NCBI GenBank assembly: GCA_046292385.1
Contig: JBKBRF010000002.1
Coordinates: forward strand, 267,824 to 331,823
Direction of reading: 5' to 3'
DNA length: 64,000 bases
DNA from: Armatimonadota bacterium
GTDB lineage: Bacteria > Armatimonadota > SYMT01
Shown here: piece by piece, positions 6,517 to 23,923 of the stretch
Layout of the letters: every line of letters begins with the position of its first letter
Position numbering within the stretch: the first letter of the stretch is position 1
Made by a program: the position numbers and the translations under genes
The notes under the pieces: generated by a model
Database searches by the model: none
What the model saw: only the letters and a program-made list of their open reading frames with translations
Told to the model about the DNA's origin: nothing

Positions 6517-6612
6517 GTCGCGCCGGCAGAGAACGTGGGAATCTCCGCGTTTGGACAGGATTCCGGCGCGGCGGGTAAACTAAGTTCGTCTCTTACGGAA
6601 GGCGAGCGGACG

Positions 6613-7296
6613 ATGATGACCCGGCGGAACCGAAGTGCCATCTTCCTGATGTGCGGAGCCCTGGTACTGGGCTCCGTGGCTCCCGCCCTGGCGGGGAAGG
6701 GCGGCGGGGGCGGCCGTGGCGGCGGCGGAGGCGGCGGCCGCTCCGGCGGCGGTCTTCGGAACCCGTTCCAGCGCCGGGGGCAGCCCAATCCGCCGCGCAC
6801 CGGGCGTCCCCACCACCGGCCTGGAGACGGAGGCGGGAACCGGGGCGGGGGTCGTGGACGCGACCGCCACCACCATCACCCGGGCCGCCGGTTCTATCGC
6901 TGGTCGCCCTGGTCGCTCGGCCTCTTCGGCGGCTACGGCGGCCTGGGGCTCGGCTTCGGCTACTACCGGAGTCCGTTCTACGACCCGTTCTACAGCCCGT
7001 ACTACTACTCCGGCATGGACCGGGAGTCGCGGGAGGATGAGGTCGGCTCCGGCAACGTGATCGTGAACGTGAAGCCGAGCAACGCCTCGGTCTACGTGGA
7101 CGGCCTGCTCTACAGCAGCAAGGGCAAGACGCGGTTCAACCTGCCGGTCGGCACCTGGAAGCTGGAGCTCCGCGCTCCCGGCTATCTGCCGCAGACGATC
7201 GAGCTCCGCGTCGAACAGGGCGTGGAGTACAAGATCGAGCGGAAGCTGGAGAAGGAGCCGGCACTGGAGCAGCCGCGCCGGAAGGAACGCGTCTAG
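6613..7296 (+). CDS. Exported Gly/Arg-rich protein with C-terminal PEGA domain
   Basis: Signal peptide ending APALA; VKPSNASVYVDG...LPVGTWKLELRAPGY PEGA pattern. Confidence 0.8.
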   Translation: MMTRRNRSAIFLMCGALVLGSVAPALAGKGGGGGRGGGGGGGRSGGGLRNPFQRRGQPNPPRTGRPHHRPGDGGGNRGGGRGRDRHHHHPGRRFYRWSPWSLGLFGGYGGLGLGFGYYRSPFYDPFYSPYYYSGMDRESREDEVGSGNVIVNVKPSNASVYVDGLLYSSKGKTRFNLPVGTWKLELRAPGYLPQTIELRVEQGVEYKIERKLEKEPALEQPRRKERV

Positions 7297-9022: not shown

Positions 9023-10216
9023 CTAGAGGAGGAAGCTGACGCCGACCAGGAAGGCCGCGAGGCCGAGCCAGGACGGGATTTTGATGCCGGAGCGATCCCG
9101 TCGCTCCCGCACTTCCGCCTTGGCATAGCCATACGGCACCGGCTCTCCGGCCTGGTCCGCCACCGCCTTCACGGCGTTGGGGTCGGGGGCAGGCGCCGGG
9201 GCTACGGTCTCGCCGGGAGCAGCGGGGGCAGCCGGCGGCTGCGCGACCGCTTCACCGGCCGGGGCCGCGGTCTTCACATCGGCGTCGCGCCCGTTCTCTA
9301 CCGCCGCCGCACGCTCCGGAGCAGCCTGGCGCCGCTCGCGCGGGGTGCGCCGACCGCCGCGTCGCCGAGAATCCTCGTCGGTGGCGGCAGGCGGGGGCGG
9401 AGTAACGAGCTGAATGCCGAGCGCCGGGTAGAGCCGATGGGCGGCGTCGGTGACGGCGCGGTCGATCACCAGCGTCTGGGCTACCCCTTCGGTGCCCTGA
9501 GCGGCGCCGGAGACGACACCGGCGCGGATCACGTCGGCAGTGGTGCTATTGACGAGCTGTGCGTCGATCGTCACCTCCGCGCGGTTGGCCGCGGCATCGA
9601 TGTTCGGCTCGATCGTGCCGATGAGGACCGCCTGAATCCCCAGCCGGTGCGCGATGAGGCGCGCCTTCTCCGGATCGATCTCACCGGAGGCGGAGTAGAG
9701 ATCCTGCAGATGCGCCGGCTCCAGCACCCCCTGGTTGCGGCCGCGCACGACGAGCGCCGAGCGAGGATGATAGGTCTGCACCTCGTAAGCCGGGGTGGCC
9801 AGGAGCGCCGCCTTGACCGCCGCCGTGGCGCGGGCGGCGAGCTGCCGCTGCTCCGTGGTGAGCGTGGTCGATTCTTCCGGCGGGGCGCCCTGCACGGTCA
9901 CGCGGTGCTGCAGAGCGCCTTCCGGCGCCGGCTCCGGAGCCGCATCGCTCGGGAAGCCGAAGGGGAACACCATCACGGAGATGGGCTGCCCCGGAACGAT
10001 GGGCGTCGGCGGAAGGTAGGTGCCGACGGGCCCCGCGGGACCACCGCCGAGGCCGCCGAAGGGGCTGCCCGGAGCGGGCGCGGGGGCGGCGGGGGTGCCG
10101 CCCGCAGGCGGGGACAGCGGTCCCTCTGAAGGCGGCTGCTGCGCGCGGCCGGCCGTCGGTGCGAAGAGCACCGCTCCGATTGCGCCGGACAGCAACCACC
10201 GATGCGCGATCCTCAT
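9023..10216 (-). CDS. Exported protein with CsgG/FlgO-like domain, Pro/Ala linker and C-terminal hydrophobic tail
   Basis: Start MRIAHRW with signal peptide ending GRA-QQ; ARLIAHRLGIQAVLIGTI...VTIDAQLVNSTTADVI; tail IPSWLGLAAFLVGVSFLL*. Confidence 0.7.
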   Translation of the reverse strand: MRIAHRWLLSGAIGAVLFAPTAGRAQQPPSEGPLSPPAGGTPAAPAPAPGSPFGGLGGGPAGPVGTYLPPTPIVPGQPISVMVFPFGFPSDAAPEPAPEGALQHRVTVQGAPPEESTTLTTEQRQLAARATAAVKAALLATPAYEVQTYHPRSALVVRGRNQGVLEPAHLQDLYSASGEIDPEKARLIAHRLGIQAVLIGTIEPNIDAAANRAEVTIDAQLVNSTTADVIRAGVVSGAAQGTEGVAQTLVIDRAVTDAAHRLYPALGIQLVTPPPPAATDEDSRRRGGRRTPRERRQAAPERAAAVENGRDADVKTAAPAGEAVAQPPAAPAAPGETVAPAPAPDPNAVKAVADQAGEPVPYGYAKAEVRERRDRSGIKIPSWLGLAAFLVGVSFLL

Positions 10217-10286
10217 TGTGAGTCTCCTGGGGAGTTTTCGGATGCCGGCGGCTGTCCGCGATCGAACGGCCGCCGGCACCCGGGAT

Positions 10287-12341
10287 TTATTGTTGATTGA
10301 AGTTCACGCCCGGACCCTCTGGCTGAGGCCAGCGGATCCGCCGCTCCGTGTTGGCATAGATCCAGACGCCGCGGCCGGGCTGCAGGATCGAATCCGCTCC
10401 CAGCTGCTTGTACTCACGGCGGACGAAGTCCCACTCGTACAGGCTCGGCCGGATGTCTCCGTTTCGCACCGCCTCCGCATAGCTGCGGAAGCCGGTCGGA
10501 GAGAGGATCTGCAGATCCGCCACCCGCACCGCGTACGGGCTGGGGTTGCCGATTTGGTTCCAGCCGCGCCGGATCGTCGTCAGGGTATTCTGCGTCGTAC
10601 CCACTTGCAGCGGGGTTGCGCCCTGGAGATCGACGAACTGCGTCGGGAGACCGTTCATCCGAACCCAGTAGGACTGTCCGGGCACGATCTCGTTCACCGT
10701 CTCATACTGGTTGATGAGCGGGTTGTAGCGAAATGCCTGGAAGCTGGTCCGGGGCAGGTTGAACGCGCTCGTCACGCTGTTCTGTCCGCCGTTGAACGTG
10801 AACGGGAACGTGAGCATCCGATACTGCGTGTCGAACTGGTAGCGCCGGCCCTGCGGCACGTTGATCTTACGGACCGCTCGGGCGGAGTCGCCGAACTCGT
10901 TCGAGAAGTCGACACTCAGCTCCAGCAAGCCGGAGACGATGCCGTTCGGCCGCACCTCCCACTGCGCGCGCCGGTTGCCGGTCCCGTCACCGTTCTCCAG
11001 GCCGTTCACGAAGCCAATATCCTGGGCCGGAGACTGCTCGGGATCAACCAGCTCGAGGCCGGTCGGCAGGTTCAGAAACGCGACGGCATTGTAGATCGGG
11101 CGCGCATCGAGGTTGTAGACGTCCGCGGAGACGGTGTCGGAGACCAGGTGGACGTCGCCGCCGTTCACCGGCAGGCCGAAGTCGGTCTGGAGACCGCCGA
11201 CGTAACCTTCGCCCTCGAGCTCGCCGTCGGGCTTGGACTGGTAGAACAGGCTCATGCCGTGGTCCACCACTCCGATTCCCGCGTAGGTGACGAAGCTCTT
11301 GGTCTGGTTGGTGCTGATCAACTCCGGCTCGAAGTACATCAGAGTACCGATATCGGAGATGTCGAGCCGCTGCGCCGGCCGCGTGGGCCAGTCGTACTGC
11401 GCATTCGCGATCGCCCACGGGAAGATGTCGAGCATGTTCCCGAAGATCACCTTGCTGGGGGTGGTGGCGTCGTTACCCCGCAAAATGCCCTTGGCGACGA
11501 AGATCGGGTCATCGCGAAGGTCGAGCACCAGGTAGTCGTTGGGGATCTGGGCACCGCGGAGCTCCGTCTCAAACCGAATGCGCTGGCGCGTATCCGGAAT
11601 GAAGACCGAGCTGTCCGAGATGCTGGTCGACGGCAGGGGGTTCGGGTTGCTCCGGCGGCCGCCGGCGTTGTCCGTGTAGGGCGCGATGATCAGCCGGGCG
11701 CCGACGCGGCGGCTGGAGCCGAGGTTGCGAACCGCTACCTCCACCCGCACCATGTCCCGGGCGAACTGCACGATCTGGTTCACTTCCAGGTTGATGCCGC
11801 TGGCCGAGGGGCCGCCCGATGGGAAGGTGTAGGGCGTCCAGAAACCGGGTGCGTTGCCTTCGATCGGCGGCAGCGGGATCACCGGCGGGAAGTAGACCTG
11901 GTCGCCGTCCTCAGGGAACTGATAGTCCGTGAATCCGTTTGCCGAGGCGGGGTCCTGGACGTGCAGCGTCAGGTGATTCGCGTACATCCGCTCTTCACCC
12001 GAGTTACCAATGCGCTGGTTGGGCCGCAGCCCGTTCAGAACCATGCTGCCCCACGGCCAGACGAGGTTATTGTCGTTGTCTACAGCGAAGGCGAGGTCAT
12101 CGCGCTCGTCTTCGAGGTTCCCCTGGTTGGTCCAGAGCTGGAAACGCGAGATGTCGTCTCCGGAGTGGTACATGAAGAGGACAACGTACGGATTGACGAG
12201 TGGGGGAAAGGAGTCGTCCCACCAATCCGGGTTGTTGCCGCCTCCCTGGGCCCGGGCGCTCTGCGCCAGCGGCACGAGCGCTACCAGCGCCAGGGCCGCC
12301 GCGGCAAAGACGCGGCCTAGCTTTCGTCGCCTGGGACTCAT
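10287..12341 (-). CDS. Secreted beta-rich protein with Ig-like domain and C-terminal shared 'GWN' module
   Basis: Signal peptide ending ARA-QG; IRRGWNQIGNPSPY...LQPGRGVWIY. Confidence 0.85.
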   Translation of the reverse strand: MSPRRRKLGRVFAAAALALVALVPLAQSARAQGGGNNPDWWDDSFPPLVNPYVVLFMYHSGDDISRFQLWTNQGNLEDERDDLAFAVDNDNNLVWPWGSMVLNGLRPNQRIGNSGEERMYANHLTLHVQDPASANGFTDYQFPEDGDQVYFPPVIPLPPIEGNAPGFWTPYTFPSGGPSASGINLEVNQIVQFARDMVRVEVAVRNLGSSRRVGARLIIAPYTDNAGGRRSNPNPLPSTSISDSSVFIPDTRQRIRFETELRGAQIPNDYLVLDLRDDPIFVAKGILRGNDATTPSKVIFGNMLDIFPWAIANAQYDWPTRPAQRLDISDIGTLMYFEPELISTNQTKSFVTYAGIGVVDHGMSLFYQSKPDGELEGEGYVGGLQTDFGLPVNGGDVHLVSDTVSADVYNLDARPIYNAVAFLNLPTGLELVDPEQSPAQDIGFVNGLENGDGTGNRRAQWEVRPNGIVSGLLELSVDFSNEFGDSARAVRKINVPQGRRYQFDTQYRMLTFPFTFNGGQNSVTSAFNLPRTSFQAFRYNPLINQYETVNEIVPGQSYWVRMNGLPTQFVDLQGATPLQVGTTQNTLTTIRRGWNQIGNPSPYAVRVADLQILSPTGFRSYAEAVRNGDIRPSLYEWDFVRREYKQLGADSILQPGRGVWIYANTERRIRWPQPEGPGVNFNQQ

Positions 12342-12444
12342 TCAAGCATCTCCAATACCGGAAGCTCCGCTGCGGAGGGAGCTGGAGGGCGAGCCTCCGG
12401 GGGGAGACCCTCCGCAGCGAGTTGTGTGCGGGTGATGGTGTGGA

Positions 12445-15249
12445 TCAGGCGCCCTTCGCTACCACAGAGAGGCGCTGCACGCCGCTTTGTGCCGGCGTGA
12501 GCTCGACGGACCCTTTGCGCGTCAGCTTGTGAAGCTTCGAGCTACCGGGGACCTTCAGATAGGCTTCCGTGTGGGCGGGGAACGCATCCCACGTCAGTTT
12601 GACGGGGGTACCGGGCTCAGAAGTTTCCACCTCTACCGTCCACGACTGGGTCTTTTTGCTGCGGTCCCGCAGGTCCCAGGCGTAGTGGCCGCTGTGCGCT
12701 CCCCAGTCGCGGTTCGCGATCCGGATGTTCGCGGGCGCCAGGGCGGGGGGGGGCGTCTCCACGTCTTCGGGTCCGAAGCCGTTACGAGCCCTGGCGGCCG
12801 CCCCCACCTTAACCTCGCCGGCGACGGCGCCGTCCGCGACCAGCTGGAGGTCGGCGGACCAGCCGCGGCCGAGGTTGGAGGCCATGGTCTCGACCTTACC
12901 GGTGGAGCTCGTCCGACTGGCGGACGGGACCCGCGGCACGATCAGCTCGAGATCCTGGAAGCTCAGGAGCCACTGGCTCTCCCAGTCGATCAGCTCCGCG
13001 GTCTCGTAGCGCTGGAACTGGTAGCGCCCTTCGAGGTAGCGCCACAGCATCGGGCGCATCCAGCCGCGCTCGGCCGCCTCGGCGACGGAGAGCACCTCGT
13101 TGCCGCGGCGCACGCTGACCGCTTTCCAGGAGACCCGGAACGGATACGGGTTACCGAGCATATTCCAGCCGCGGCGCACCGGGATCACGTAGAAGCCGGC
13201 CCGTTCCGACTCGCCGAGAAGCTGCGTCTGGGTGGTGTTCACCACGCGCGCCCAGTAACCAATGCCGATCGGCGGCCGGGCGACGCCGGCGCTATCGGTG
13301 GTGAGCGACGCTTCCGGATCCTGCGGAGAGCCGACGATGTCCCAGATCGCGTAGCGGTTGCGCACCGGCAGCCAGCGGGCCAGCCGCACCAGGTTGCCGC
13401 CGAACAGGAACGCCAGGCTGTCGGAGCCTTCCGTCAGCTCGTACGGGACGCTGAACATCTTCAGGCCCGGATACTCGATGTGCGGCCGCACCTGGAAGGT
13501 GAAGGATCGGGCAGGGATACGTCCCTCCGCGGGCCCTTCGAAGCTGCGGATGGCGCCGTCCAGGACCGGGTGCTCGATCTGGAGATCCAGGGAGTTGACG
13601 CCGATCTGGTAGGCGGTCTCCGCCTCCGGGCGGTAGAGAATGGTCCCCGCCCCCGCATCCAGGATTTCGGCGTCGAAGATCTCTTCGCCGTTCTGGATGA
13701 TTACGAAGTCGTCTTCGGTCAGATCTCCGGGCGCCGGGCGCACGATGCGCGCGCGGAACGGCTCGCCGAAGCTGGCGGTGATCTCGTTCGGCTCGGGCGA
13801 AGTGATGTCGGCCCACTGGGTGACGCGCTTCAGCGCGGCATCGGCGCTGACCACGCCGAACCCGTACTGCTTGGTGAAACGCCCGAACGGATTGCGGGCG
13901 GTTCCGGTCAGCACGCTGCGGAGAAAGTCGACGCGGTCGCTGGGCACCGCCGTCGGGTCTTCGTCGAGCGCCTCGACCGCTCCCTGGGAAATCAGCGTCG
14001 CCAGCAATCCACTCACATAGCCGGCGGAAAGGCTCGTCCCTTCGGCGTAGGCATAGCCGGGGCCTGCCGGGTTGAAGATGTTGCCGGAGGAGGTGTCGGC
14101 GACGAGCACCCGGTTGTTCGGATTGAGGAACGTGGGATCGTTGCCTCCCGGCGCCATCAGGTCGAGCTCCGGCCCACCGTTGGAGTAGTAGGCGCGCTCT
14201 CCGTTTCGGCCGACCGCACCCACCACGATGACGGGGCTGTCCAGGCTGCCGGGGAAGCTCACCGCCGGATCATCAAAGCTCGGGCTGCCGGGGATCCGAT
14301 CGTTTCCTGCCGCGGTAACTACGACGACTCCGTCGTTGTACACCTCGTTGATCGCGGCGGCGACCTGCGCGTCCGGGGTCGGGAGCGTGAAGCTCAGGTT
14401 GATGATGTCGGCGCCCTGGTCGCGGCTGTAGTAGATCGCGTCTACCACGGCGCTGGCGACGAAGACCGGCACCGGAACGTTGTTCACGACTACGAAGTCG
14501 CCCACGTTGCACGGCAGGAGCGTGACCGCCTCCCAGGGGAGGCTGGCAATACCGGTGCCGTTGTTGTTGACGGCGGCGATGCAGCTCGCCACCTGAGTGC
14601 CGTGGCCATACAGCAGGGAGACGCCGCTGTCCCCGTCGTAGGGCTCGTCAGCCACGAAGTCGTAGGCGTTGGCGGTGTCGAATACCGGTTGGAGATCCGG
14701 GTGATCCAGATCGGGTCCGAAGTCGACCAGCCCCACGAGCACGTCTTTGCGGGGGCCGTCTACGAAGCGCTCGCCGACGGTGATCCCCCAGACGTTGCGC
14801 GCTCCGAGCTGGCTCAGCGCCCACTGCTCGTTTAGGGCCGGGTCGTTCGGCTCCACTACCGGTAGGGCGGCGGGACGGAAATAGTGGTTGGGCGACGCGA
14901 TCTGAACGCCGGGCGTCTGCCGCAGCACGGCGACTGCGTGCTCCAGCGAGGTGCGCACGCCGGAGAGCACGTGCGTGTTCGGCGCGTGGCGAAGCGTCTT
15001 CTTTACGGTGAGTCCATGCGCCTGAGCGATGGAGCTGATGGATGCGTTCGGAACGAGCCGAACGATGACTTCCCCCGCTGCGGCGAGGGGAATGGCACTC
15101 TCCGGCACGGGAGGGTGCTGCGCCTGCCGGGAGGCCGGCGCGGCGGCGCGCCCTCCGCTCTGCGCCTGGGCACCGATGGAGGTGCAGGCGAGGGTGGCGG
15201 CGCCAAGGAGAGCTAGCGAAGATAGATATTTAGTGTAAGAGATAGACAT
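12445..15249 (-). CDS. Secreted S8 (subtilisin-like) serine protease with 'GWN' module
   Basis: Catalytic triad VDFGPDLDHPDL / GHGTQVAS / EGTSLSAGYVSG; oxyanion AAGND; prodomain; VRRGWNMLGNPYP. Confidence 0.92.
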   Translation of the reverse strand: MSISYTKYLSSLALLGAATLACTSIGAQAQSGGRAAAPASRQAQHPPVPESAIPLAAAGEVIVRLVPNASISSIAQAHGLTVKKTLRHAPNTHVLSGVRTSLEHAVAVLRQTPGVQIASPNHYFRPAALPVVEPNDPALNEQWALSQLGARNVWGITVGERFVDGPRKDVLVGLVDFGPDLDHPDLQPVFDTANAYDFVADEPYDGDSGVSLLYGHGTQVASCIAAVNNNGTGIASLPWEAVTLLPCNVGDFVVVNNVPVPVFVASAVVDAIYYSRDQGADIINLSFTLPTPDAQVAAAINEVYNDGVVVVTAAGNDRIPGSPSFDDPAVSFPGSLDSPVIVVGAVGRNGERAYYSNGGPELDLMAPGGNDPTFLNPNNRVLVADTSSGNIFNPAGPGYAYAEGTSLSAGYVSGLLATLISQGAVEALDEDPTAVPSDRVDFLRSVLTGTARNPFGRFTKQYGFGVVSADAALKRVTQWADITSPEPNEITASFGEPFRARIVRPAPGDLTEDDFVIIQNGEEIFDAEILDAGAGTILYRPEAETAYQIGVNSLDLQIEHPVLDGAIRSFEGPAEGRIPARSFTFQVRPHIEYPGLKMFSVPYELTEGSDSLAFLFGGNLVRLARWLPVRNRYAIWDIVGSPQDPEASLTTDSAGVARPPIGIGYWARVVNTTQTQLLGESERAGFYVIPVRRGWNMLGNPYPFRVSWKAVSVRRGNEVLSVAEAAERGWMRPMLWRYLEGRYQFQRYETAELIDWESQWLLSFQDLELIVPRVPSASRTSSTGKVETMASNLGRGWSADLQLVADGAVAGEVKVGAAARARNGFGPEDVETPPPALAPANIRIANRDWGAHSGHYAWDLRDRSKKTQSWTVEVETSEPGTPVKLTWDAFPAHTEAYLKVPGSSKLHKLTRKGSVELTPAQSGVQRLSVVAKGA

Positions 15250-15353
15250 CCACCAACTCCTGGTCTAAACGGCGGCGGTGGGGAGCCGAGGGGGAGAAGG
15301 GGTACCCGCCGCCCCGGGGTGCGGGGCGGCGGGACAGCGGGGAGAGGGAGCAA

Positions 15354-17438
15354 CTACTTCGGCCGGATCCCTCCGCGCTCCAGACGAAGCTTCCCGTCGC
15401 GGTCCTTGCCGCCGCGATCGTTCTTCTTCTGATTCTGCGGGCGCGCGCTGGGCGGTCCGGGAGGACCACTCTCCGGTCGCACCTGAACGGCGGGTCCGAA
15501 CATGGCGCCGAACGGCTTCGGCTGGGTCCGGTCGCCGGAGTTCCGGGCGCCGACGGTGATAAAGATCGGCTCCCGAGCCCGGTTCGCCAGGCCGCTGATG
15601 TTGATCGTGCGGCTGACGGACATGGGACCGCCCTGATCGGAGGGCACCACGCGGAACGGACCGAACGTGCGGCGGCTTCCGCGACCGAAGTTCGGGTTGC
15701 GGCTCGCCCAGATCACGTAGGTGTCCGCCCCGGGCGTCTGCTGCCAGGTTACGTCGACAGCGCGCGGATCGACCTCCTGGTTCGCTACCACCGGCTCGCC
15801 GTCAATCGCGATTACGTTCGGCGGCACGATAGCGGTCACCCAGGGAGTCGACTCGGAGAGCGGAGACATGATCTCGTCGCCCACGACAGGATCGGTGGGC
15901 AGATCTGAGTCGTCGTCTTCCCAGTTGTTCTGGTAGACGAAGGCGGTCGCCACTTGGTAGCGATAGGAGACGCCCGGGACGATGCCCGGGACCGCGGGGA
16001 ACGTGGTGCGGCTGCCCGCGTCGCTTCCTGGCTGCCCGTCATAGGCGACGACGTCCCTCGTGGCTTCGGTATCGATGAAGCAGCGAGTGGAATCTGCGTC
16101 CACGCCGCCGACTACCTCGAAGGCACCCGTGGAGCTCAGGCGCCAGATGACGTAGCCGAGCACGTGGCTGCTGCTGAGCGACTTGGGGCGCTCCCAGCAG
16201 GTCCGGATCCGGGCGCCGGGGACGCCGAGGTCGGGCTGGAAGTTGAAGGCCGTGGAATCGTGCGGGCGGGTAGCGTTCTCACCGCCGCGTCCGCCGAGGG
16301 CCAGGAGACCGAGAAGCAGAAGGCCTCCTGCCGCAAGCTTCACGGCGTTGTTGCCCAGGATGCCGCGGCCCCGGCTGCTGCTCCGTTCGACGGCGGGCTC
16401 GTCGACGTCCACCACCACGGGCGGGGGAGTCTGGGGAGCATTCTGGGAGAGCACCAGGTCGGCATCCGCCGGCGCCCGCAGGTTTACGAAGCCGGCGTCC
16501 CGCTGCACCTTCGCCACGCGGGCGGGGCCGTCCGCTTCCGCGGCGCCCGGACGGGCGGCGGCGGGAAGCGGCGCCTCGGCGCTGGAGCGAAGCTGCGCGC
16601 GGGTCATCGGGAAGTCGGCGAAGTTGAAGATCGCCCGCACCCGATCTTCCGGCTGCACGCCCTGAATGTTCTGGATGATCCGCCCGCGGCTCAGGTCGGC
16701 GTCGACCTGGGTGACGCGCACCCGGGCGACCGGCTGGCGCAGCCGGGTGACGATCATCTCCATTCCGGGGCGCACGCCCTGGCGGGCGCCGATATTCATC
16801 AGCACCTCGAGGTCACCCTCTTCCACGTTCCGAACGGTGGTGTTGAGCACCGTACCGGACGGCAGGCGGAAGCGGTCCATGAACTCGCGCGCCTGGTAAG
16901 CGGCTTTGCCGATCGCTTCTTCCAGGAGGATGTCGGCGTTACCGGAGAAGCCCATCCGGGCCGTGCTGCGTCCGCGGCCGATGGCGCCGCTGATCGGCAC
17001 GCCGGTAGCGATGTCTTCCACGATCACGCGGACGGTCGCTTCCGCGTACGGGGTGGTGCCGTCCACCACGCGGGCTTCGGTAACGGTGCCGTAGAGCACC
17101 GCGGTGGCGTCCACGCCGCGAGCGATCGCCACCCGGTCGGGGCGATCGAAAGGAGGCTCCAGTCCGAGATCCTGGATCTGTCGCTGAACAAGCGATTCCG
17201 GAACCACCTCCCAGTTGGGGGATTCGGCGAGCTGCAGCGACACTTGCGCCGCGGCCGTCTTGCCCAGCAGCGCCCCGCCCACCGTCGTGCTGTTGTTGAA
17301 GTCCAGCACGTAGATGAGGGGGGTGGTCTGCTGCGCCTGCACGGGGGTGGCGGCGACGCCGAAATACGGCGCCACCATCAGCCCGGCCAGCACCCGGGCG
17401 AACCAGGTTCGCCGGATGCTACAGCGGAAGTACTTCAC
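15354..17438 (-). CDS. Exported protein: CsgG-like + FlgT-C-like domains, internal hydrophobic helix, FN3-like domains
   Basis: GTG start after AGGAGG; IYVLDFNNS...VDATAVLYGTV...VEDIATG; LMNIGARQGVRPGMEMIV; LAAGGLLLLGLLALGG; GIVPGVSYRYQVAT. Confidence 0.75.
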   Translation of the reverse strand: MKYFRCSIRRTWFARVLAGLMVAPYFGVAATPVQAQQTTPLIYVLDFNNSTTVGGALLGKTAAAQVSLQLAESPNWEVVPESLVQRQIQDLGLEPPFDRPDRVAIARGVDATAVLYGTVTEARVVDGTTPYAEATVRVIVEDIATGVPISGAIGRGRSTARMGFSGNADILLEEAIGKAAYQAREFMDRFRLPSGTVLNTTVRNVEEGDLEVLMNIGARQGVRPGMEMIVTRLRQPVARVRVTQVDADLSRGRIIQNIQGVQPEDRVRAIFNFADFPMTRAQLRSSAEAPLPAAARPGAAEADGPARVAKVQRDAGFVNLRAPADADLVLSQNAPQTPPPVVVDVDEPAVERSSSRGRGILGNNAVKLAAGGLLLLGLLALGGRGGENATRPHDSTAFNFQPDLGVPGARIRTCWERPKSLSSSHVLGYVIWRLSSTGAFEVVGGVDADSTRCFIDTEATRDVVAYDGQPGSDAGSRTTFPAVPGIVPGVSYRYQVATAFVYQNNWEDDDSDLPTDPVVGDEIMSPLSESTPWVTAIVPPNVIAIDGEPVVANQEVDPRAVDVTWQQTPGADTYVIWASRNPNFGRGSRRTFGPFRVVPSDQGGPMSVSRTINISGLANRAREPIFITVGARNSGDRTQPKPFGAMFGPAVQVRPESGPPGPPSARPQNQKKNDRGGKDRDGKLRLERGGIRPK

Positions 17439-17494
17439 GGACGGATCCTCCTTCGCGATCAGCACGCGTGATGGCCGCGGGGAAGCGGAGCTCC

Positions 17495-20400
17495 TTACAG
17501 GAGCCGCGTACGCGCGGGCCGAGTTTCATTCTGTTTCGGTTGTGCGGCGAGCGCACGGTGCCCTGGCGTACGGCTGCTGGGGCGGCGGCGGCCGGGGTTG
17601 CGGCTGCCGGAGAGCGAAGCCGCGGCCGTGGCCGCCGCACCCGGGAAGGTGCGGCGGACGGCGGTCGCGGTAGTGGAACGGGATCGGACGGCTGCCGCCG
17701 CCGGGGAGCCCGGCAGCGGAGAGTCGACCTGCGGGAGACGCGCCGTGCGGTTGCCGGTGAGGCCCGCGTCGGCCATACCGTTGGCCGGCGGCACGATCAG
17801 GGTGACCGCCTGGAACGCCCGCATGAAGTAGCCGGCAAACGGCTCCATGTAGTCGGACAGGTAGTACCGGTCCGAGTAGCCCCAGAGGCCGTTCTGGATG
17901 ATGCCGTCGTCATACGCCTGCTGCATCGTCCGGATCGTGCCGTCCGGAGACATCACCTTCACGCGAAGCCACTCGACGCGGCGCTCCCGCACGCTGCCGA
18001 TCATGTTCCAACCCGGCCGGACGGAGATATTCACGTCTTCGTCCGGATCCGCCTGCGCGCCGCTGTTGGTGAAGGCGGTCGGGCGAGCGAAGCGGACGAA
18101 CATCGCCCGTCCGAGGCGGAACTCGGCCGCGTCGCGATCCGGGTAGATCGCGTAGCGCCGGGAGTCGGGGAGCCAGTAGGCCGAGCGGAACTGGTTGCTC
18201 GGGATGCCCATCACCGAGGCCGCATCCTGGCCGCGGAAGTCATCAGGCAGCGAGACGAGGTGGAGTCCGGCGCCGAAGACGTGTCGGGGATCGAGCACGA
18301 AGTTCTGCGTCTGGCTCTGCTGCGGATTCACGGTGATCGTGCGGGTCAGCGGCTTCCAGCCAGGCTTGCTGACGCGGAGGACGAAGGTCCCGAACCGATC
18401 CGTGAAGACCTCGTAGTTCACGACCGGGTTGCCGCTGCCGGTGTCGTTCGACTGGGCGGTGGCCACCGCGGGGCCGCCGTTCTGCGGCAGCACCTCGACG
18501 GTCACGCCGCCGATGAACGCCCCGTCGACGCTGCTCCGGATCGTGCCGCTGATGCGGGACGGCGGAACGCGCTGCAGGAGGATCGTCGGCGCGGTGACGT
18601 TGTTCTCGACGAACACCTGGGTCCCGCCCGGCTGGTAGCCGAAGGCGGTGGCCTGGATGTCGTACAGCCCGCCCGCGAGCTGCGCGGTGGTGTAGCGGCC
18701 GTTCTGGTCCGTGCTGACGGTAGCCACCACGTTGCCGCCGGGGTTGGCGGTGACGGTCACCGTCGCGTTGGCGATGAAGTCGCCGGGCGTATTGTCCGGC
18801 TTCAGCTCGCGCACAATACCGGTGATCGTGCCGGGCAGCGGCACCAGGTCGAAGTCCAGGCGGGTCGCCTGGCCTCCGGTGACGGTGAACGATTGCGTCA
18901 CCGCCTGGTAGCGCGGATCGTTGACCCGCACTTCGTAGGTGCCCTCCGGCAGATGCTCGTCCTGCTGGTTCGTGCCGCCGACGGTGTAGTTCATCTGGCC
19001 GCCGTCCGGCGCGCCGACGCTCGCCGCGAGGGACGGCGCGCTCTCGGCGATCTTCATGCTGCCGAACGGCGAGCTCGCCGGAGTCCAGAACTCCACCACC
19101 ACTCCGCTGCGCAGCGCGCCGTCGATGGTGCGGCGGGTGAGGCCGAAGACCTGCCCGCGCGCGGCCCGGATCAGGACGATGTCGTCCAGGGTGGTGTCGC
19201 CGGCGACGAAGACGCCGCTGATCGTCCGCTCCGTGTGGCCGAACTTGCGCACGGTCACGGTATAAACGTCGCTCGGGATCGTCGGCGTGGCGTAGGTGCC
19301 GTCGGCGCCGGTGAGGACCGTGACGATCGCCACGCCCGGCTGCAGGCGCTCTGAGGTCACCACCACGGTAGCGCCTTCGAGCGGCCGGATCTGACCGTTG
19401 CCCGGATCCTCCAGCACGCGTCCACTCAGCTTGCCGTCCTTACCTTCCAGGAGAAGGACCGGGGCGGTAATAGGCGGGTCGCCCGTCACGTCCACGTTGA
19501 CCTGCGCGTCTTTGAAGCGCGGGTGGTTGCGGAGCGCGATGGTGAACTCACCTTCCTGCGCGTCGGCGAACTTGTAGTTGTGGCGCACCGGCACGTCGAG
19601 GCCGGGGGCGAACACGTTGGTGTTCAGCCCCACCGCGAGCTGGCTGGACCGCCGCAGGAGCTGCAGGGTGACCGGGACTTCCAGATCGCGCGTCTGCAGC
19701 TCGACGTTGTCGATCTTGCGCAGCGCGCGGCCGTAGATGTCGACCCGCTCCGCGGCAGCGAGGAGGATCTCCACGCTGCTCTGCTGCGGGATGTTCACCT
19801 GGGCCACGCCTTCCTGGCGGCCGAACTTGAACGCGGTCACCTGGTTGGGGCCCGCGGGCACGTTCTGCGCCACGTCGGCGTTCGGATCGTCGGCGGAGAA
19901 GAGCACTTCACCGTCGGCGCCGGTCGTGCCGGTCAGGCCGGCGATGACCGCCCCGTTCGGGTCGAGGATCGTCACCTCGGCGCCTTCCACGGGGTTCCCC
20001 TTCGTTCCGTCGGGCTTGGCTTCGAACACCTTGACGGTGAGCGGACCGGACTGGCCCTCGATCTGGAAGTCGACGTTGGGCGTAGCCTGGGCCGGGTTCA
20101 CCACTTCGGTGCGCGTCGGGCGGGTGCCGTTGATGAAGCCGAACCGTTCCGGCAGCGGATCCTCAATGGTCACCTCGTAGGTGCCCACCGGAGCGCTGGG
20201 AATGTTGTAAGTGCCGTCGGCGACCGTGGTGGCGCGGAATTCGCGCTGGCCAGTGTAGAGCGGCGAGGCCTGGAGCGTGGCCAGGATCTTCACGTCCGGC
20301 ACCGGGCGGTTGAACTGGTCCGTCACCTTACCGGAGATGGAGCCGGGCGCCGCCGGGGTGAGGAAGACGTCTTCCGATACCTGGTCGAGACCGTGCGCGC

Positions 20401-23400
20401 CATTACCGGTCGACTTCTGGAAGGCGAGGAAACCGGGATTCTCTACCGTAATGTTCCAGCCGCCCACCGGGAGACCGCGGATGGCGTAGGTGCCGTCCGC
20501 CCGGGTGAAGGCACTGCCGACGATGGTGTTGCCTCGCATCGCCTTGACGAAGGCTCCGGCAATCGGCGCTCCGCCGCTCAGGTTTCGCACCTGGCCCACC
20601 AGGTCCACGCTGAACATCCAGCAGAACATGGCGTGGCTGACCTTCTGCCGGTAGTTCATGCTGACGAGCGCACCGTCCTCGTCCGGAGCCGAATAGCGGC
20701 GCCCGAAGCTGGCGAGGCTGAACGACATGAACACCGTCTTGGACCGGCTTCCTGCGTCGTCCCGTGCGACCATGCGTTGGGGCGCGATCTCTTCCCAGCC
20801 GGCGCGCGCCTGAATGGCGTCCTGGGTCCGGAACGGCGTGCTGTCGGTGGCCGTGTGCGAATCGTGGCTGAATCCGTTGAAGAACGGGTTAGGAACCGTG
20901 GCGTACCAGCTCGTGGGCGTACCCAGAATCGCGGGTTGATAGATGCCCGTCCACCACGGGGGCCCGACGCCGGGACGGAAGTTCTGATCCGCAGCGTCCA
21001 TGATGATCGCCTGGGCCAGCGGTCCGCCCAGGTTGAACGCCTGGAAGTTGCCGTACGTCTCGTCCGCAAGGAAGTTGACGCCGAGTACGTCCTGGACGAA
21101 CTGCTGCTGTACCTGACCGTTGACGGTAAGCGCCCATACAATATCCCCACCCGCGATCACGAGGCGTCCACCGCGATTGCGATACTTGGTGATCTCCTGC
21201 TGAGTCGCCTGGTCGAGAATGCTGCCGGAGCCCATGAAGATGTCGCCGGTGTAGGGCGAATTCCACACGATGGCCCGGCGGGGCACCGGCTGCTGCTCCG
21301 TCACGCTGCCCGTGATGGTACGAGGCTGCTCGTCGAAGGTCGGCAGATAGGAGTTGAAGACGGTTTCCGGCACCGCGCCCTTGGCAAGCACACGCCAGAA
21401 GTCGTAGGTGTAAATCGACAGATAGCCGCGGTTTTCGACCCCGCCCACGTACTGGATGCGCCGATAGGGGGTAGCGGCGCCCGCCAGGAAGGGGTGTACC
21501 TGGTTCGTAACCTCGAACGCCGTCGCGCCAGGATCCGCGATGTCGAACAGGTCGTACGGCGGCAGCGGATTGCCGTTCGCATCTACCTGCGTATGCCTTA
21601 CCTCGCGGGTGTAGTAGGTCAGGTCGCGGTCGATTACTTCGGACTCGGTGCCATACCGGAACTCGGCGAACGGGCGGAAGGCGCCCTTCAGCCCGCGCGG
21701 CCACTTTTGGCCAGGACCGTAGTCATCCACATAGAGCACCGGATTCGTGGAAACGAACGGTTGGGTGCTGAAGCCCCAGATGTTGTCGTAGATGATCCAG
21801 TTGTGCTTGAAGGTCGGGTTCTGCGGATTCTCGGCCTTGTCGTAGGCGATCAGGTCGACATAGTAGTCGCTCGGATCGTTCGGTGTGACCCACGAGGCGG
21901 AGAAGATGCCGTCGCCGGCAACCTGGTCCGGAGCGCGTCCGTCGTCTTCCAACTTCAGCCAGCGAGCATTGCCGTTCGCGTCGACTGGGGGCTGGTTGAA
22001 TACGCCGGACCAGCGCACGGCGTCGTCGACGCCGGGATTGTAGCTGGCGTAGCGTGCACGGGAAAGGGCTACGAAGTCGTCCACCACCGGCTGGCGGAAG
22101 TACTGGTAGTCGCTTACTCCGACGCCGTCGTAGTCAGTTTCGAAGGCCTGGTGCAGCCAGTGAACGGGCGCATTGTTGTTGAACGTCGCCGGGTAAGTGT
22201 TGTTCAGCCGGGTGCGGGTCGGAGACGGGAAGCTGCCAACGCCGTACAGCTTGTGGTTGATCCCACGGGCGTCGGTGCTGGGGCCGTCCGGGTCCTTGAT
22301 CTGGATCCAGACCGACTCTACCCCGTACTGGAGGTCCTTCACCTTGGCGTAGAAGTAGAACGTGTCCCCCGCGGTGCCGAGGCGCCGACCCGGATTCGGC
22401 AGCGGCGCGTTGGCGATATGGAGCGTTTCCCCCGTCTCGACGCCGGCATCGATGTAGGACGCCTTCTCGTCACCGATCGGGAAAAGGGTGGGCGGGGTGA
22501 TGTCGGTCACCTCCGCGGCCCAGATGTCGGTGTCCCCCGCGGGAGCAACGAGCGGCGCCTGCAGATCGTTAACGTTGTTGTAGCGATTGCTCTGGAACGC
22601 GATGCGGTCGATCGGGTTCTGCGGCGGCAGACCGGCGGACCAGGTAGGGAACCGTTCGTCGGTCTGGTTCAGCGGCACGGCGCCCGCGTTGGTGTCCGGC
22701 GTGAAGAGCCGGATCGGCACGTTGAACGCGCTCTCCTGCTGACCGTTATTGAAGTAGATGTCGTAGGTGATGCCGCCGTTCCGGTTCTTGGACGCCCACG
22801 CTACCCAGCCGCTGAAGCCGGCGGAGCCGAGGTTGATCGCCGGCTCCACGTCGTCCGCCGTGCTGGTGGTCACCTGGAAGGCGGCGCCGGTAAGCGGGAG
22901 GATGTAGAAGAGGTTGTGGTCCGTAACTGCGGTGGGCGCAGCGAGGTTCACCTGGCCACCCGCCACGCCGGCGGAGTTGGCTGCGACAATGATGCGCGGG
23001 TTGGCGGCGGTGCTGTTCGGGTCCACAAACGGGTCGATGAACTCCACGCCGTTGGCGGGAGTGCCGTTGGTCACCTTGGTGACCACGCCGCTGATCAGAT
23101 TGACCTTGTAGACGTTGCGGACGTCGTTCGCTACGCGCCGGTCCCGGGCCGCGAAATAGATGTGCCCATCGCCGGCCTCGAAGGTCGGCCGCTCCACGTT
23201 GACGATCTCGGCCGCCAGCGGGTTATTCAGCACGTTGATGCCGGTGTACTGGCGCCGCTGCCCGGTGAGGAAGTCGAGCACGAAGAGCTGGTACGGCTCG
23301 GCGAGCGAGGCCCGGCTCACGTAGGCCATCAGCGTCTGACCGAAGCTCAGGGCCGGGAAGAGCTGGCTGTTCGGTGCTTCATCCGGGTAGTTGGCATTTA

Positions 23401-23923
23401 CGCCGGTGATGCGCTGGATGAAGGCGCCGTCGCTCGTCATCCGGTAGATGTGGTACGGAGCGTTCCCGGGAGGCGCGGTCTTGCCATGCTCGGCCACGGC
23501 GTCGATGTTGTTCGACGCGAAGAAGATGTACTGCTGGTCCCAGCTCCAGAACGGGTGCACTTCCTGCGACTTGGTGGAAGGGCCGACGAGCGGGGGACGG
23601 GGCAAGGTGGTGAGGTCGATGAACTGCGGCTGCGTCTCCGGCGGCTGCACGTTGGCGGGCCGAATCTTGCCCTCTAGCTCTGCCTGCTTGCTCGCCAACA
23701 GCGCATCGAACTCCTTCTGGGAGTAGCGCTGCAGCGGCAGGTTCGACAGCTCGTAGGAGCTCAGCGGCTTATCGCCGCGCCCCCGGACGGGTGCGGCGGG
23801 ACCGCGCCCGCCCCTTCCCGCGGTCTGGGCGGCGGAGGCACAGATCAAGATGCCGGAAAAGAGGAGGGCAGCAATAAAGAGCGCAAGCGCGCGGCCCAGT
23901 TGGACAGAAGGACCCCGTTTCAA
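17495..23923 (-). CDS. 2142-aa secreted protein: TolB/PD40-like propeller, choice-of-anchor-X-like motif, carboxypeptidase-regulatory-like repeats, 'GWN' module
   Basis: GAGGAGG RBS and signal peptide; HPFWSWDQQYIFFASN; LEDDGRAPDQVAGDGIFSASW; repeated G-x-I-x-G-x-V...T-x-ADG-x-Y units; VRPGWNMIGSV. Confidence 0.88.
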   Translation of the reverse strand: MKRGPSVQLGRALALFIAALLFSGILICASAAQTAGRGGRGPAAPVRGRGDKPLSSYELSNLPLQRYSQKEFDALLASKQAELEGKIRPANVQPPETQPQFIDLTTLPRPPLVGPSTKSQEVHPFWSWDQQYIFFASNNIDAVAEHGKTAPPGNAPYHIYRMTSDGAFIQRITGVNANYPDEAPNSQLFPALSFGQTLMAYVSRASLAEPYQLFVLDFLTGQRRQYTGINVLNNPLAAEIVNVERPTFEAGDGHIYFAARDRRVANDVRNVYKVNLISGVVTKVTNGTPANGVEFIDPFVDPNSTAANPRIIVAANSAGVAGGQVNLAAPTAVTDHNLFYILPLTGAAFQVTTSTADDVEPAINLGSAGFSGWVAWASKNRNGGITYDIYFNNGQQESAFNVPIRLFTPDTNAGAVPLNQTDERFPTWSAGLPPQNPIDRIAFQSNRYNNVNDLQAPLVAPAGDTDIWAAEVTDITPPTLFPIGDEKASYIDAGVETGETLHIANAPLPNPGRRLGTAGDTFYFYAKVKDLQYGVESVWIQIKDPDGPSTDARGINHKLYGVGSFPSPTRTRLNNTYPATFNNNAPVHWLHQAFETDYDGVGVSDYQYFRQPVVDDFVALSRARYASYNPGVDDAVRWSGVFNQPPVDANGNARWLKLEDDGRAPDQVAGDGIFSASWVTPNDPSDYYVDLIAYDKAENPQNPTFKHNWIIYDNIWGFSTQPFVSTNPVLYVDDYGPGQKWPRGLKGAFRPFAEFRYGTESEVIDRDLTYYTREVRHTQVDANGNPLPPYDLFDIADPGATAFEVTNQVHPFLAGAATPYRRIQYVGGVENRGYLSIYTYDFWRVLAKGAVPETVFNSYLPTFDEQPRTITGSVTEQQPVPRRAIVWNSPYTGDIFMGSGSILDQATQQEITKYRNRGGRLVIAGGDIVWALTVNGQVQQQFVQDVLGVNFLADETYGNFQAFNLGGPLAQAIIMDAADQNFRPGVGPPWWTGIYQPAILGTPTSWYATVPNPFFNGFSHDSHTATDSTPFRTQDAIQARAGWEEIAPQRMVARDDAGSRSKTVFMSFSLASFGRRYSAPDEDGALVSMNYRQKVSHAMFCWMFSVDLVGQVRNLSGGAPIAGAFVKAMRGNTIVGSAFTRADGTYAIRGLPVGGWNITVENPGFLAFQKSTGNGAHGLDQVSEDVFLTPAAPGSISGKVTDQFNRPVPDVKILATLQASPLYTGQREFRATTVADGTYNIPSAPVGTYEVTIEDPLPERFGFINGTRPTRTEVVNPAQATPNVDFQIEGQSGPLTVKVFEAKPDGTKGNPVEGAEVTILDPNGAVIAGLTGTTGADGEVLFSADDPNADVAQNVPAGPNQVTAFKFGRQEGVAQVNIPQQSSVEILLAAAERVDIYGRALRKIDNVELQTRDLEVPVTLQLLRRSSQLAVGLNTNVFAPGLDVPVRHNYKFADAQEGEFTIALRNHPRFKDAQVNVDVTGDPPITAPVLLLEGKDGKLSGRVLEDPGNGQIRPLEGATVVVTSERLQPGVAIVTVLTGADGTYATPTIPSDVYTVTVRKFGHTERTISGVFVAGDTTLDDIVLIRAARGQVFGLTRRTIDGALRSGVVVEFWTPASSPFGSMKIAESAPSLAASVGAPDGGQMNYTVGGTNQQDEHLPEGTYEVRVNDPRYQAVTQSFTVTGGQATRLDFDLVPLPGTITGIVRELKPDNTPGDFIANATVTVTANPGGNVVATVSTDQNGRYTTAQLAGGLYDIQATAFGYQPGGTQVFVENNVTAPTILLQRVPPSRISGTIRSSVDGAFIGGVTVEVLPQNGGPAVATAQSNDTGSGNPVVNYEVFTDRFGTFVLRVSKPGWKPLTRTITVNPQQSQTQNFVLDPRHVFGAGLHLVSLPDDFRGQDAASVMGIPSNQFRSAYWLPDSRRYAIYPDRDAAEFRLGRAMFVRFARPTAFTNSGAQADPDEDVNISVRPGWNMIGSVRERRVEWLRVKVMSPDGTIRTMQQAYDDGIIQNGLWGYSDRYYLSDYMEPFAGYFMRAFQAVTLIVPPANGMADAGLTGNRTARLPQVDSPLPGSPAAAAVRSRSTTATAVRRTFPGAAATAAASLSGSRNPGRRRPSSRTPGHRALAAQPKQNETRPARTRLL

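What the first reader, a model, noticed from the sequence alone, without database searches (positions are those of the whole stretch)
9023..23923. Candidate undescribed surface export/assembly system: three 'GWN'-tagged cargo proteins interleaved with two CsgG/FlgT-like proteins
Seen: five co-oriented genes, all with signal peptides, in the order giant propeller/repeat protein, CsgG-like+FlgT-C-like protein, S8 protease, beta-rich protein, CsgG-like protein. The three non-CsgG proteins share one module at or near the C-terminus. Established: CsgG is the ring-forming curli (type VIII) secretion channel, related folds (FlgT, HfaB) form envelope rings or anchors, and T9SS and cellulosomes use a common C-terminal tag on diverse cargo. 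No curlin or flagellar genes are present here. Inference: a dedicated ring/anchor that exports or docks tagged cargo, with the protease as maturation enzyme or effector.
Basis: partly seen in the sequence, partly recalled or inferred. Interest (0 to 1): 0.85.

Follow-up and report, generated by a model that had tools for sequence, protein, structure and literature searches.

The report
Conserved Armatimonadota envelope anchor-client operon
A five-gene cluster found in nearly all sampled bacteria of the phylum Armatimonadota pairs membrane-anchored proteins of the LpoB/PelC/CsgG/FlgT fold with three secreted proteins that share an undescribed but very widespread domain, which suggests an uncharacterised way of holding proteins at the cell envelope.

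Summary
Five co-oriented minus-strand genes fill 9023-23923. The 2142-aa repeat protein (A), the S8 protease (C) and the 684-aa beta-rich protein (D) share a ~170-aa 'GWN' module. B has an LpoB/PelC/CsgG-type alpha/beta domain plus a FlgT_C-like barrel, best matching FlgT. E has the same alpha/beta fold on weaker evidence.

New points. The cluster is conserved across Armatimonadota, next to coaE-rpsA-polA. B was found in 355 of 401 genomes, and a GWN gene lay beside B in 40 of 40 loci examined. The GWN module is not lineage-specific: 29,067 representative proteins match it, no Pfam or NCBIfam model covers it, and it occurs in archaea and on T9SS cargo. In Marinisomatota, genuine Pfam-CsgG proteins with the same 'basic patch-TM helix-PPxPP' tail as B sit between GWN genes.

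Best reading (0.42): B and perhaps E are membrane-tethered docking partners for GWN-bearing proteins. They are not a CsgG-type channel, and GWN is an interaction domain, not a secretion signal. A predicted B-GWN complex gave weak support (0.59; best control 0.27). Mechanism, location and B's topology remain open. I found no description in print.

The parts
17495..23923 (-). Gene A: 2142-aa exported giant protein. It has an unassigned N-terminal ~1100 aa (choice-of-anchor X motif at 658-689), CarboxypepD_reg/Ig-like repeats at ~1100-1870, a GWN module, and an Ala/Arg-rich tail.
   Evidence: Orthologues lie upstream of B in other Armatimonadota.
17789..18283 (-). GWN module of A (residues ~1881-2045)
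   Evidence: BLASTP. Profile hit E=5e-58.
15354..17465 (-). Gene B: signal peptide, LpoB/PelC/CsgG-fold domain, FlgT_C-like barrel, disordered linker, basic patch plus hydrophobic helix, two FN3-like domains, Pro-rich (PPGPP) tail.
16869..17330 (-). B alpha/beta domain (model residues 37-190)
16623..16868 (-). B beta-barrel (model residues 191-272), like FlgT_C and the F1-ATPase N-terminal barrel
16293..16352 (-). B internal hydrophobic helix (model 363-382), preceded by a basic patch
   Evidence: It aligns with the signal peptide of the paralogue on contig C13.
15468..16283 (-). B tandem FN3-like domains (model 386-657)
   Evidence: Paralogue at G000:C13.
12445..15249 (-). Gene C: exported subtilase with prodomain, GWN module and a C-terminal beta domain
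13855..14748 (-). C Peptidase_S8 catalytic domain (residues 168-465)
   Evidence: Pfam E=2.5e-34. PDB subtilisins down to E=2.3e-20.
12934..13482 (-). GWN module of C (residues ~590-772)
12448..12912 (-). C post-GWN C-terminal domain (residues ~780-934). The same domain follows GWN in many relatives.
   Evidence: tblastn C_ct hits in 10 of 40 loci. Sequences of P0085, P0087 and P0098. No Pfam hit in this copy. Relatives' clusters carry FlgD_ig in 79-81% of members.
10287..12341 (-). Gene D: exported protein with a galactose-mutarotase-like beta-supersandwich, a further beta domain and a C-terminal GWN module
10992..12224 (-). D N-terminal supersandwich region (residues ~40-450)
10332..10856 (-). 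GWN module of D (residues ~496-670)
9023..10279 (-). Gene E: signal peptide, Pro/Gly-rich stretch, CsgG/LpoB-fold core, charged linker, PVPYGYA motif, basic patch and a hydrophobic helix that ends the protein
9392..9997 (-). E CsgG/LpoB-like core (P0051 residues 74-275)
   Evidence: Atlas structure search. Only other hit of the B N-domain profile in the genome, E=0.029.

Best explanation
This is a core envelope gene cluster of the phylum Armatimonadota.

B, and its shorter relative E, are exported and held in a membrane by a hydrophobic helix. Each displays an LpoB/PelC/CsgG/FlgT-type alpha/beta domain. A, C and D are Sec-exported proteins with different working parts: Ig-like repeat array, subtilase, and carbohydrate-binding-type supersandwich. 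All three carry one ~170-residue beta-rich GWN domain.

Most likely B, and perhaps E, acts as a membrane-tethered docking or organising partner. It would capture the GWN domains and so keep a protease, a glycan-binding protein and a giant repeat protein together at the envelope. The logic is that of scaffold and dockerin. It is not a CsgG-type channel, and GWN is an interaction domain, not a secretion signal.

Shown: gene order, the shared module, the folds, the phylum-wide linkage, and its recurrence in a second phylum.

Inferred: physical binding, which domain of B binds, the compartment, and any ring formation.
For: (1) Linkage. The B N-terminal region was found in 355 of 401 genomes of the phylum, 277 of 300 high-quality ones. 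Five of 5 'negative' genomes tested had it with a profile. In 40 of 40 B loci that I picked for long contigs and different families, at least one GWN ORF lies beside B on the same strand. One copy in 15 loci, two in 16, three in 9; L145's third is a split hit.

(2) Exclusivity in this genome. GWN occurs only in A, C and D. The B-type N-domain profile hits only B and, weakly, E.

(3) Recurrence outside the phylum. In Neomarinimicrobiota loci L081 and L118, a 232-236-aa protein sits between two GWN genes that carry T9SS sorting domains. It scores above Pfam's CsgG cut-off (31-40 bits; cut-off 20.8). It has the same layout as B: signal peptide, alpha/beta domain, basic patch, TM helix, PPxPP tail. 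L063 and Cytophagia L087 are similar. Of 9 further such genes chosen without regard to GWN, 3 are directly followed by a GWN protein.

(4) Shared tail. 23 of 40 B homologues have a PPxPP or PPPP motif in their last 70 residues, often at the very C-terminus. TM-plus-PPxPP-tailed ORFs lie on the GWN strand in 9 of 1063 ORFs, against 0 of 1133 on the other strand.

(5) Predicted complex of full-length B with D's GWN: weak support. Score 0.59 (runs 0.62, 0.58, 0.59); best of 3 controls 0.27. The mark was reached by 116 of 157 solved complexes and 2 of 215 mismatched pairs. At 0.60 or under it was reached by only 18 of the 157, and by both mismatches that passed. The runs agree in at least 60% of contacts and the partner's pLDDT is at least 83.

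(6) Folds.
Against: The complex score is weak and no interface was released.

GWN occurs in archaea and in many phyla. In 49 of 77 GWN loci no B-like or CsgG-like ORF was found in the held flank, even with the broad profile. Six of 9 small CsgG-like genes had no GWN neighbour, although some flanks were short. One Armatimonadota genome has B but no GWN hit (G046).

B's topology is unresolved. It has an N-terminal signal peptide and an internal hydrophobic helix, but K/R residues are enriched before that helix, not after it: 3.45 against 1.18 per 15 residues in 40 homologues. A paralogue uses the equivalent segment as a signal peptide. So the alpha/beta domain and the FN3 pair may lie on opposite sides of a membrane.

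There are no expression, localisation or binding data.
Confidence: 0.42

Rival explanations
1. Co-expressed envelope proteins without direct docking. B and E are LpoB-like or spacer-like regulators or tethers of the wall or outer membrane. The GWN domain is a glycan- or wall-binding module that retains A, C and D on a cell-surface polymer. The genes travel together because they serve one envelope process.
Against: The same pairing of a CsgG-fold TM protein with GWN genes in two distant phyla points to more than co-regulation. There is weak complex support. No PBP or wall-synthesis gene is in the cluster.
Confidence: 0.25
2. Dedicated export conduit, the first reader's 'exports' reading. B and/or E oligomerise into a PelC/CsgG/FlgT-like ring that guides or passes GWN-tagged cargo across the outer membrane.
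For: The nearest solved relatives (PelC, CsgG, FlgT) all work as rings; this is established knowledge of those structures, whose entries are listed. A, C and D have Sec signals but no export signal recognised by Pfam or NCBIfam. Armatimonadota are diderm by cryo-EM of Fervidibacter sacchari (PMC11535203, passages read).
Against: B's domain is the short ~155-residue form, with 136 residues aligned to CsgG. B and E lack a lipobox. GWN proteins in Marinisomatota already carry T9SS type A sorting domains: TIGR04183 26.5 bits, cut-off 23. GWN occurs in archaea. No oligomer was modelled.
Confidence: 0.12
3. Surface-layer or coat system. A is the main building block of an S-layer-like coat, C processes it, D and the GWN domains bind the underlying glycan, and B/E are the membrane anchors.
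For: A's repeat region partially matches the anammox S-layer glycoprotein model: NF052345, E=1.4e-15 but 55.8 bits against a cut-off of 1400. A is very large and made of CarboxypepD_reg repeats. The cluster is conserved across the phylum.
Against: A-type genes were detected in only 14 of 40 loci with my tblastn probe. The NCBIfam match is a repeat-level likeness far below cut-off. The one paper I read passages of reports no S-layer of the organism itself in the passages that hold 'S-layer'.
Confidence: 0.08

Closest known systems
FlgT of the Vibrio flagellar H-ring (PDB 3w1e, 8z5n)
   Different: There is no flagellar context: no Flagellin_N in a 98% complete genome. Pfam FlgT_C scores only 13.8 bits against a cut-off of 27. 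B adds a hydrophobic helix, two FN3-like domains and a PPxPP tail. It is linked to GWN-protein genes instead.
PelC / LpoB / CsgG / GNA1162 outer-membrane lipoproteins (TolB-N-like fold)
   Different: B and E have no lipobox Cys and are held by hydrophobic helices after long linkers. Pfam CsgG and LpoB find nothing in this genome. There are no curli genes. No CsgG-type membrane hairpins were shown.
Shared-module systems: T9SS C-terminal domains and cellulosomal dockerin-cohesin
   Same: One common module sits on otherwise unrelated exported proteins encoded next to a partner. In relatives GWN is often followed by a FlgD_ig or Por_Secre_tail-type domain.
   Different: GWN is about 170 aa and not always terminal; in C about 160 residues follow it. 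It has no Pfam or NCBIfam model. It occurs in archaea and coexists with true T9SS sorting domains. So it is not itself that signal. No cohesin or dockerin is present in these five proteins.
Thermotoga Omp-alpha-type periplasm-spanning tethers (recalled, not checked in any call)
   Same: E has the same layout: signal peptide, globular head, long charged or helical spacer, and a hydrophobic helix that ends the protein.
   Different: The head is CsgG/LpoB-like, not SLH. Which membrane holds the helix is unknown.

Membership tests
CsgG curli channel (Pfam PF03783) | Sequence match above Pfam's gathering score | tested here: not met
   No CsgG hit for B or E at E<=0.1. No PF03783 match in the whole genome at E<=0.01, while 4 of the 14 control genomes rang.
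CsgG curli channel (Pfam PF03783) | TolB-N-like alpha/beta core fold | tested here: met
CsgG curli channel (Pfam PF03783) | Lipoprotein signal (lipobox Cys) | tested here: not met
   By inspection, the mature N-termini follow A-x-A|Q sites with no Cys. No lipoprotein predictor was run.
CsgG curli channel (Pfam PF03783) | Membrane-spanning beta-hairpins that form the oligomeric barrel | tested here: inconclusive
   B's domain spans about 155 residues and aligns to 136 CsgG residues. No oligomer was modelled.
CsgG curli channel (Pfam PF03783) | Curlin subunit genes (CsgA/B) | tested here: not met
   No Curlin_rpt in the genome; the E. coli control rang.
FlgT (flagellar H-ring) | Alpha/beta domain plus FlgT_C barrel fold | tested here: met
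FlgT (flagellar H-ring) | Pfam FlgT_C above cut-off | tested here: not met
   13.8 bits against a cut-off of 27, E=0.082.
FlgT (flagellar H-ring) | Flagellar gene context | tested here: not met
   No Flagellin_N in the genome; 4 controls rang. None in the window.
LpoB (PBP1B activator) | Fold of the globular domain | tested here: met
LpoB (PBP1B activator) | Pfam/NCBIfam LpoB match; outer-membrane lipoprotein | tested here: not met
   No PF13036 match in the genome; E. coli control rang. No lipobox by inspection.
LpoB (PBP1B activator) | Binding to the UB2H domain of a class A PBP | not testable with these tools
   No assay is available here, and no PBP gene is in the cluster.
T9SS type A C-terminal sorting domain (as the identity of 'GWN') | Match to Por_Secre_tail / TIGR04183 at the C-terminus | tested here: not met
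   No such hit in A, C or D. In Marinisomatota relatives the T9SS domain is a separate domain downstream of GWN.
T9SS type A C-terminal sorting domain (as the identity of 'GWN') | Restricted to T9SS-bearing bacteria | tested here: not met
   Structural look-alikes in Methanobacteriota clusters and feature look-alikes in Chloroflexota.
Subtilase (Peptidase_S8), gene C | Pfam match above cut-off and a catalytic Asp/His/Ser | tested here: met
   119.4 bits against a cut-off of 21.8. PDB subtilisins down to E=2.3e-20. VDFG, HGT and GTSLS motifs are seen in the sequence; that these motifs mark the triad is recalled.

The most novel reading that the evidence does not exclude
GWN-domain proteins and membrane proteins ending in 'basic patch-TM helix-PPxPP' form a previously unrecognised, widely distributed two-part envelope system. 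The ectodomain of the membrane partner is most often CsgG/LpoB-fold. It is also Kre9-like Ig, trypsin-like or TPR in Cyclobacteriaceae, KSB1 and Nitrospira loci. The system is seen from Armatimonadota to Marinisomatota, Bacteroidota and KSB1. In Armatimonadota it has become a near-universal core machine: a ring-forming anchor, possibly crossing a membrane in an unusual topology, that assembles or releases a protease, a lectin-like protein and a giant repeat protein at the cell surface.
Probability: 0.15. Interest if true: 0.85.

Novelty: new variant of a known kind. Interest (0 to 1): 0.66.

Why it matters
Armatimonadota are diderm Terrabacteria whose envelope biology is almost unstudied. A five-gene cluster present in roughly nine of ten sampled genomes, next to polA-rpsA-coaE, is a candidate for a lineage-defining envelope structure.

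The GWN domain matches about 29,000 representative proteins at 50% clustering, in bacteria and archaea. It has no Pfam, NCBIfam or solved-structure counterpart that I could find. Naming it and finding its ligand would annotate thousands of large surface proteins.

The repeated pairing with CsgG/LpoB-fold membrane proteins gives that widespread 'CsgG-like, function unknown' class a testable partner.

Tried and rejected
- B vs E by BLASTP (E=2.5) and hhalign (E=0.078): no significant sequence link by these routes.
- E profile against PDB sequences: only low-complexity matches.
- A against PDB sequences: nothing at E<=0.01.
- A N-terminal 90-1100 against Pfam at E<=5: no PD40 or propeller family, so the 'propeller' is unverified.
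- GWN fold against PDB: not tested on its own. I therefore make no claim that the fold is new.
- Promoter and terminator scan: at or below the shuffled expectation, and no minus-strand terminator between the genes.
- RNA evidence: no RNA holder listed.
- T9SS marker SprA_N in the genome: the search had no positive control, so it is uninformative.
- Papers (full-text searches of the held library, listings only unless stated): 'Armatimonadota'+'S-layer' gave 9 papers, none on this cluster (passages of PMC11535203 read). PelC/LpoB/CsgG/FlgT/TolB gave 2 irrelevant papers. Armatimonadetes/fimbriae gave 58 papers, 12 listed; passages of PMC4072686 concern type IV pili only. The strings GWNLIS, GWNLIG, GWNMIG, GWNLVS, GWNQIG and 'GWN motif' gave 0 papers.
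- Earlier findings by place or sequence: none.
- Paralogue of B's FN3 pair on C13: its neighbours are peptidases and DUFs, which is uninformative.
- The listing of cluster members could not be used. The taxonomy of the top GWN hits therefore rests.
Full report
**1. What is there**

The window has about 70% G+C. Five minus-strand ORFs occupy exactly the reported span:
- A 17495-23923 (2142 aa)
- B 15354-17465 (703 aa)
- C 12445-15249 (934 aa)
- D 10287-12341 (684 aa)
- E 9023-10279 (418 aa)

All have coding-type third-position G+C. The gaps between them are 29, 104, 103 and 7 nt. Upstream on the same strand lie coaE, rpsA (S1) and polA. Downstream lies a hydantoinase B gene. The pattern scan found no minus-strand terminator between the genes, but that scan is at chance level.

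**2. The five proteins**

A carries CarboxypepD_reg-type Ig-like repeats: Pfam E=4.3e-53, 6 stretches. It also has a short choice-of-anchor X motif. Its N-terminal ~1100 residues match nothing in Pfam or PDB sequences. The 'propeller' is therefore unverified.

C is a subtilase with a fervidolysin-type prodomain.

B was modelled from 30 homologues, pLDDT 78.9. The model has these parts:
- an N-terminal signal-like helix;
- an alpha/beta domain (37-190);
- a small beta-barrel (191-272);
- a disordered linker;
- a hydrophobic helix (363-382);
- two FN3-like domains (386-657).

Foldseek's top PDB hits are FlgT: 8z5n at 2.3e-12 and 3w1e at 1.1e-11. The Foldseek-independent VIA search gives these matches for the alpha/beta domain:

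|---|---|
| PelC | 13.6 |
| PelBC | 13.4 |
| LpoB | 13.1 |
| FlgT | 12.5 |
| CsgG | 12.2 |
| GNA1162 | 11.8 |
| TolB | 10.1 |

The Atlas's own model of it matches clusters carrying Pfam CsgG, LpoB and FlgT_C, with TM 0.55-0.62 over about 150-165 residues. A phylum-wide profile of B's N-domain finds, in the whole genome, only B and then E at E=0.029. The same profile hits E-like ORFs downstream of B in other loci at 1e-4 to 8e-7. Direct B-E comparisons were not significant.

Neither B nor E has a lipobox.

**3. The shared 'GWN' module**

Pairwise BLASTP links A 1881-2045, C 590-772 and D ~500-645 at E=1e-9, 3e-7 and 1e-5. In this genome the module is confined to these three proteins.

It is not a lineage-specific tag.
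- A 39-sequence profile (A3) matches 29,067 of 1.84 billion representative proteins at E<=1e-3. It matches 10,066 at E<=1e-10 and 1,010 at E<=1e-30.
- In 27 top hits no Pfam family covers it. It is attached to FG-GAP, PKD, Glucodextran_B, PQQ-propeller, CarboxypepD_reg and dockerin proteins.
- NCBIfam has no model for it.
- The only PDB sequence match is borderline: SGBP-B 6e57, E=0.044.
- A scan of species genomes found it in records named for many lineages. These include Armatimonadota, Neomarinimicrobiota, Latescibacterota, Krumholzibacteriota, Calditrichota, KSB1, Bacteroidota, Fidelibacterota and WS1.
- The Atlas adds structural look-alikes in Methanobacteriota and Ignavibacteriota.
- In many relatives GWN is followed by a second conserved domain, like C's residues ~780-934. 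It is then followed by a FlgD_ig or Por_Secre_tail-type domain.

**4. Conservation and linkage**

B's N-terminal ~300 residues were found in 355 of 401 sampled genomes of the phylum. That is 277 of 300 high-quality genomes and 188 of 207 genera. One homologue bears the name 'Armatimonadetes bacterium'. Five 'negative' genomes all had it when searched with a profile. Four of those five have GWN ORFs flanking it.

I fetched 40 B loci, choosing long contigs and different families; this is not a random sample. Results:

| Feature beside B | Loci of 40 |
|---|---|
| GWN ORF, same strand | 40 |
| coaE | 35 |
| rpsA | 31 |
| S8 domain | 23 |
| D-type N-domain | 18 |
| A-type middle region | 14 |
| E core | 10 |

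The minimal form is B plus one GWN protein.

Outside the phylum, the first profile found B-like ORFs beside GWN in 21 of 77 loci. That is 18 of 32 Armatimonadota-named loci, 1 of 26 loci named for other phyla (WS1), and 2 of 19 unnamed loci.

A broader profile (A7) raised this to 28 of 77. The new non-Armatimonadota hits are small proteins in three Neomarinimicrobiota loci and one Cytophagia locus.
- They score above Pfam's CsgG cut-off: 31.1-40.4 bits against a cut-off of 20.8.
- Their layout is signal peptide, alpha/beta domain, Lys-rich patch, Gly-rich TM helix, and a tail ending in PPxPP.
- In L081 and L118 they sit between two GWN genes that carry T9SS sorting domains. A FecR-domain gene and a CHASE2 cyclase follow.
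- Nine further full-length genes of this small family were picked from the phylum without regard to GWN. Three of them are immediately followed by a GWN protein.

**5. A shared tail and a topology puzzle**

Nearly all of the 40 B homologues examined have an N-terminal signal-like segment and a second hydrophobic helix right after the N-domain.

K/R residues average 3.45 in the 15 residues before that helix and 1.18 after it. This is the n-h-c look of a signal peptide. In this genome's paralogue of the FN3 pair (C13, 330 aa), the equivalent segment is an N-terminal signal peptide. E likewise ends in a basic patch plus a hydrophobic helix.

Simple rules would put B's N-domain and FN3 pair on opposite sides of a membrane. 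The charge pattern argues the other way. I cannot resolve this.

23 of 40 B homologues have a PPxPP or PPPP motif in their last 70 residues, often at the very end. The same TM-plus-PPxPP tail is found on GWN-adjacent proteins with other ectodomains: Kre9-like Ig, trypsin-like and TPR. It occurs in 9 of 1063 ORFs on the GWN strand and 0 of 1133 on the opposite strand.

**6. Binding test**

Full-length B (A2) was folded with D's GWN (A3). The verdict was 'weak support': 0.59 (runs 0.62, 0.58, 0.59) against a best control of 0.27. The calibration counts are quoted in the For line. No interface was released.

**7. Reading**

The genes, the shared module and the folds are real, and the pairing is far beyond chance.

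I think the most likely mechanism is docking of GWN-bearing exported proteins onto membrane-tethered B and E. A CsgG-type channel is unlikely on present evidence, for four reasons:
- B has the short form of the domain, with no lipid anchor.
- There are no curli or flagellar partner genes.
- GWN proteins elsewhere use T9SS.
- GWN occurs in archaea.

A reading without direct binding, with GWN as a glycan-binding module, is not excluded.

**8. Earlier notes of this scan**

Two unchecked notes on other Armatimonadota genomes describe other operons that pair CsgG/LpoB- or FlgT/FlgO/FlgP-like proteins with exported proteins sharing a C-terminal module. They fit the theme. I did not test them, and they are not independent evidence.

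**9. Limits**

- There were only two fold jobs.
- The GWN fold was never searched alone.
- Signal peptides and lipoboxes were judged by eye.
- Loci were hand-picked.
- HMMs built from few sequences may miss distant CsgG-like neighbours.
- No RNA, localisation or binding data exist.
- My claim that this is not in print rests on the searches and 88 of the held library only.

Noticed in passing
G000 contig C13:115337-116329 (L128:7338-8330, +): A stand-alone paralogue (330 aa) of B's C-terminal FN3 pair, 55% identical. Its N-terminal signal peptide aligns with B's internal hydrophobic helix. This suggests B arose by fusion of two exported proteins.
   Followed up: partly
L081:4238-4933, L118:2189-2896, L063:804-1517, L087:2612-3271, L115:1647-2426, L083:9394-10293, L121:2626-3363: A recurring C-terminal element, 'basic patch - Gly-rich TM helix - short spacer - (L)PxPPxPP', on proteins with different ectodomains: CsgG/LpoB, Kre9-like Ig, trypsin-like, TPR. 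All are encoded beside GWN-domain genes in several phyla. No NCBIfam model matches it.
   Followed up: partly
L063, L081, L118 (Neomarinimicrobiota): A conserved cluster: GWN/T9SS-cargo gene, small CsgG-family TM protein, GWN/Laminin_G_3/T9SS-cargo gene, FecR-domain protein, CHASE2-adenylate/guanylate cyclase. This hints at a link between these surface proteins and a membrane sensor.
   Followed up: no
window 29498-30703 (-) and 30915-32378 (-): Two coding-type ORFs (401 and 487 aa) just upstream of polA with no Pfam family at E<=0.001.
   Followed up: no
window 5479-6516 (+), 6535-7296 (+): A STAS-domain protein followed by a PEGA-domain protein on the opposite strand, just downstream of the cluster. 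PEGA-like matches also occur inside A.
   Followed up: no
window 3572-5341 (-) and 4396-6300 (-): Two long overlapping minus-strand ORFs both hit BPD_transp_1. The listed starts are probably too far upstream; two adjacent ABC permease genes is the likely explanation.
   Followed up: no
P0085, P0087 (representative proteins): Some non-Armatimonadota proteins carry two GWN modules separated by the 'post-GWN' domain, which has a conserved D-x-x-D-x-x-E-P-P stretch. GWN plus this domain therefore behaves as a repeatable supermodule.
   Followed up: partly
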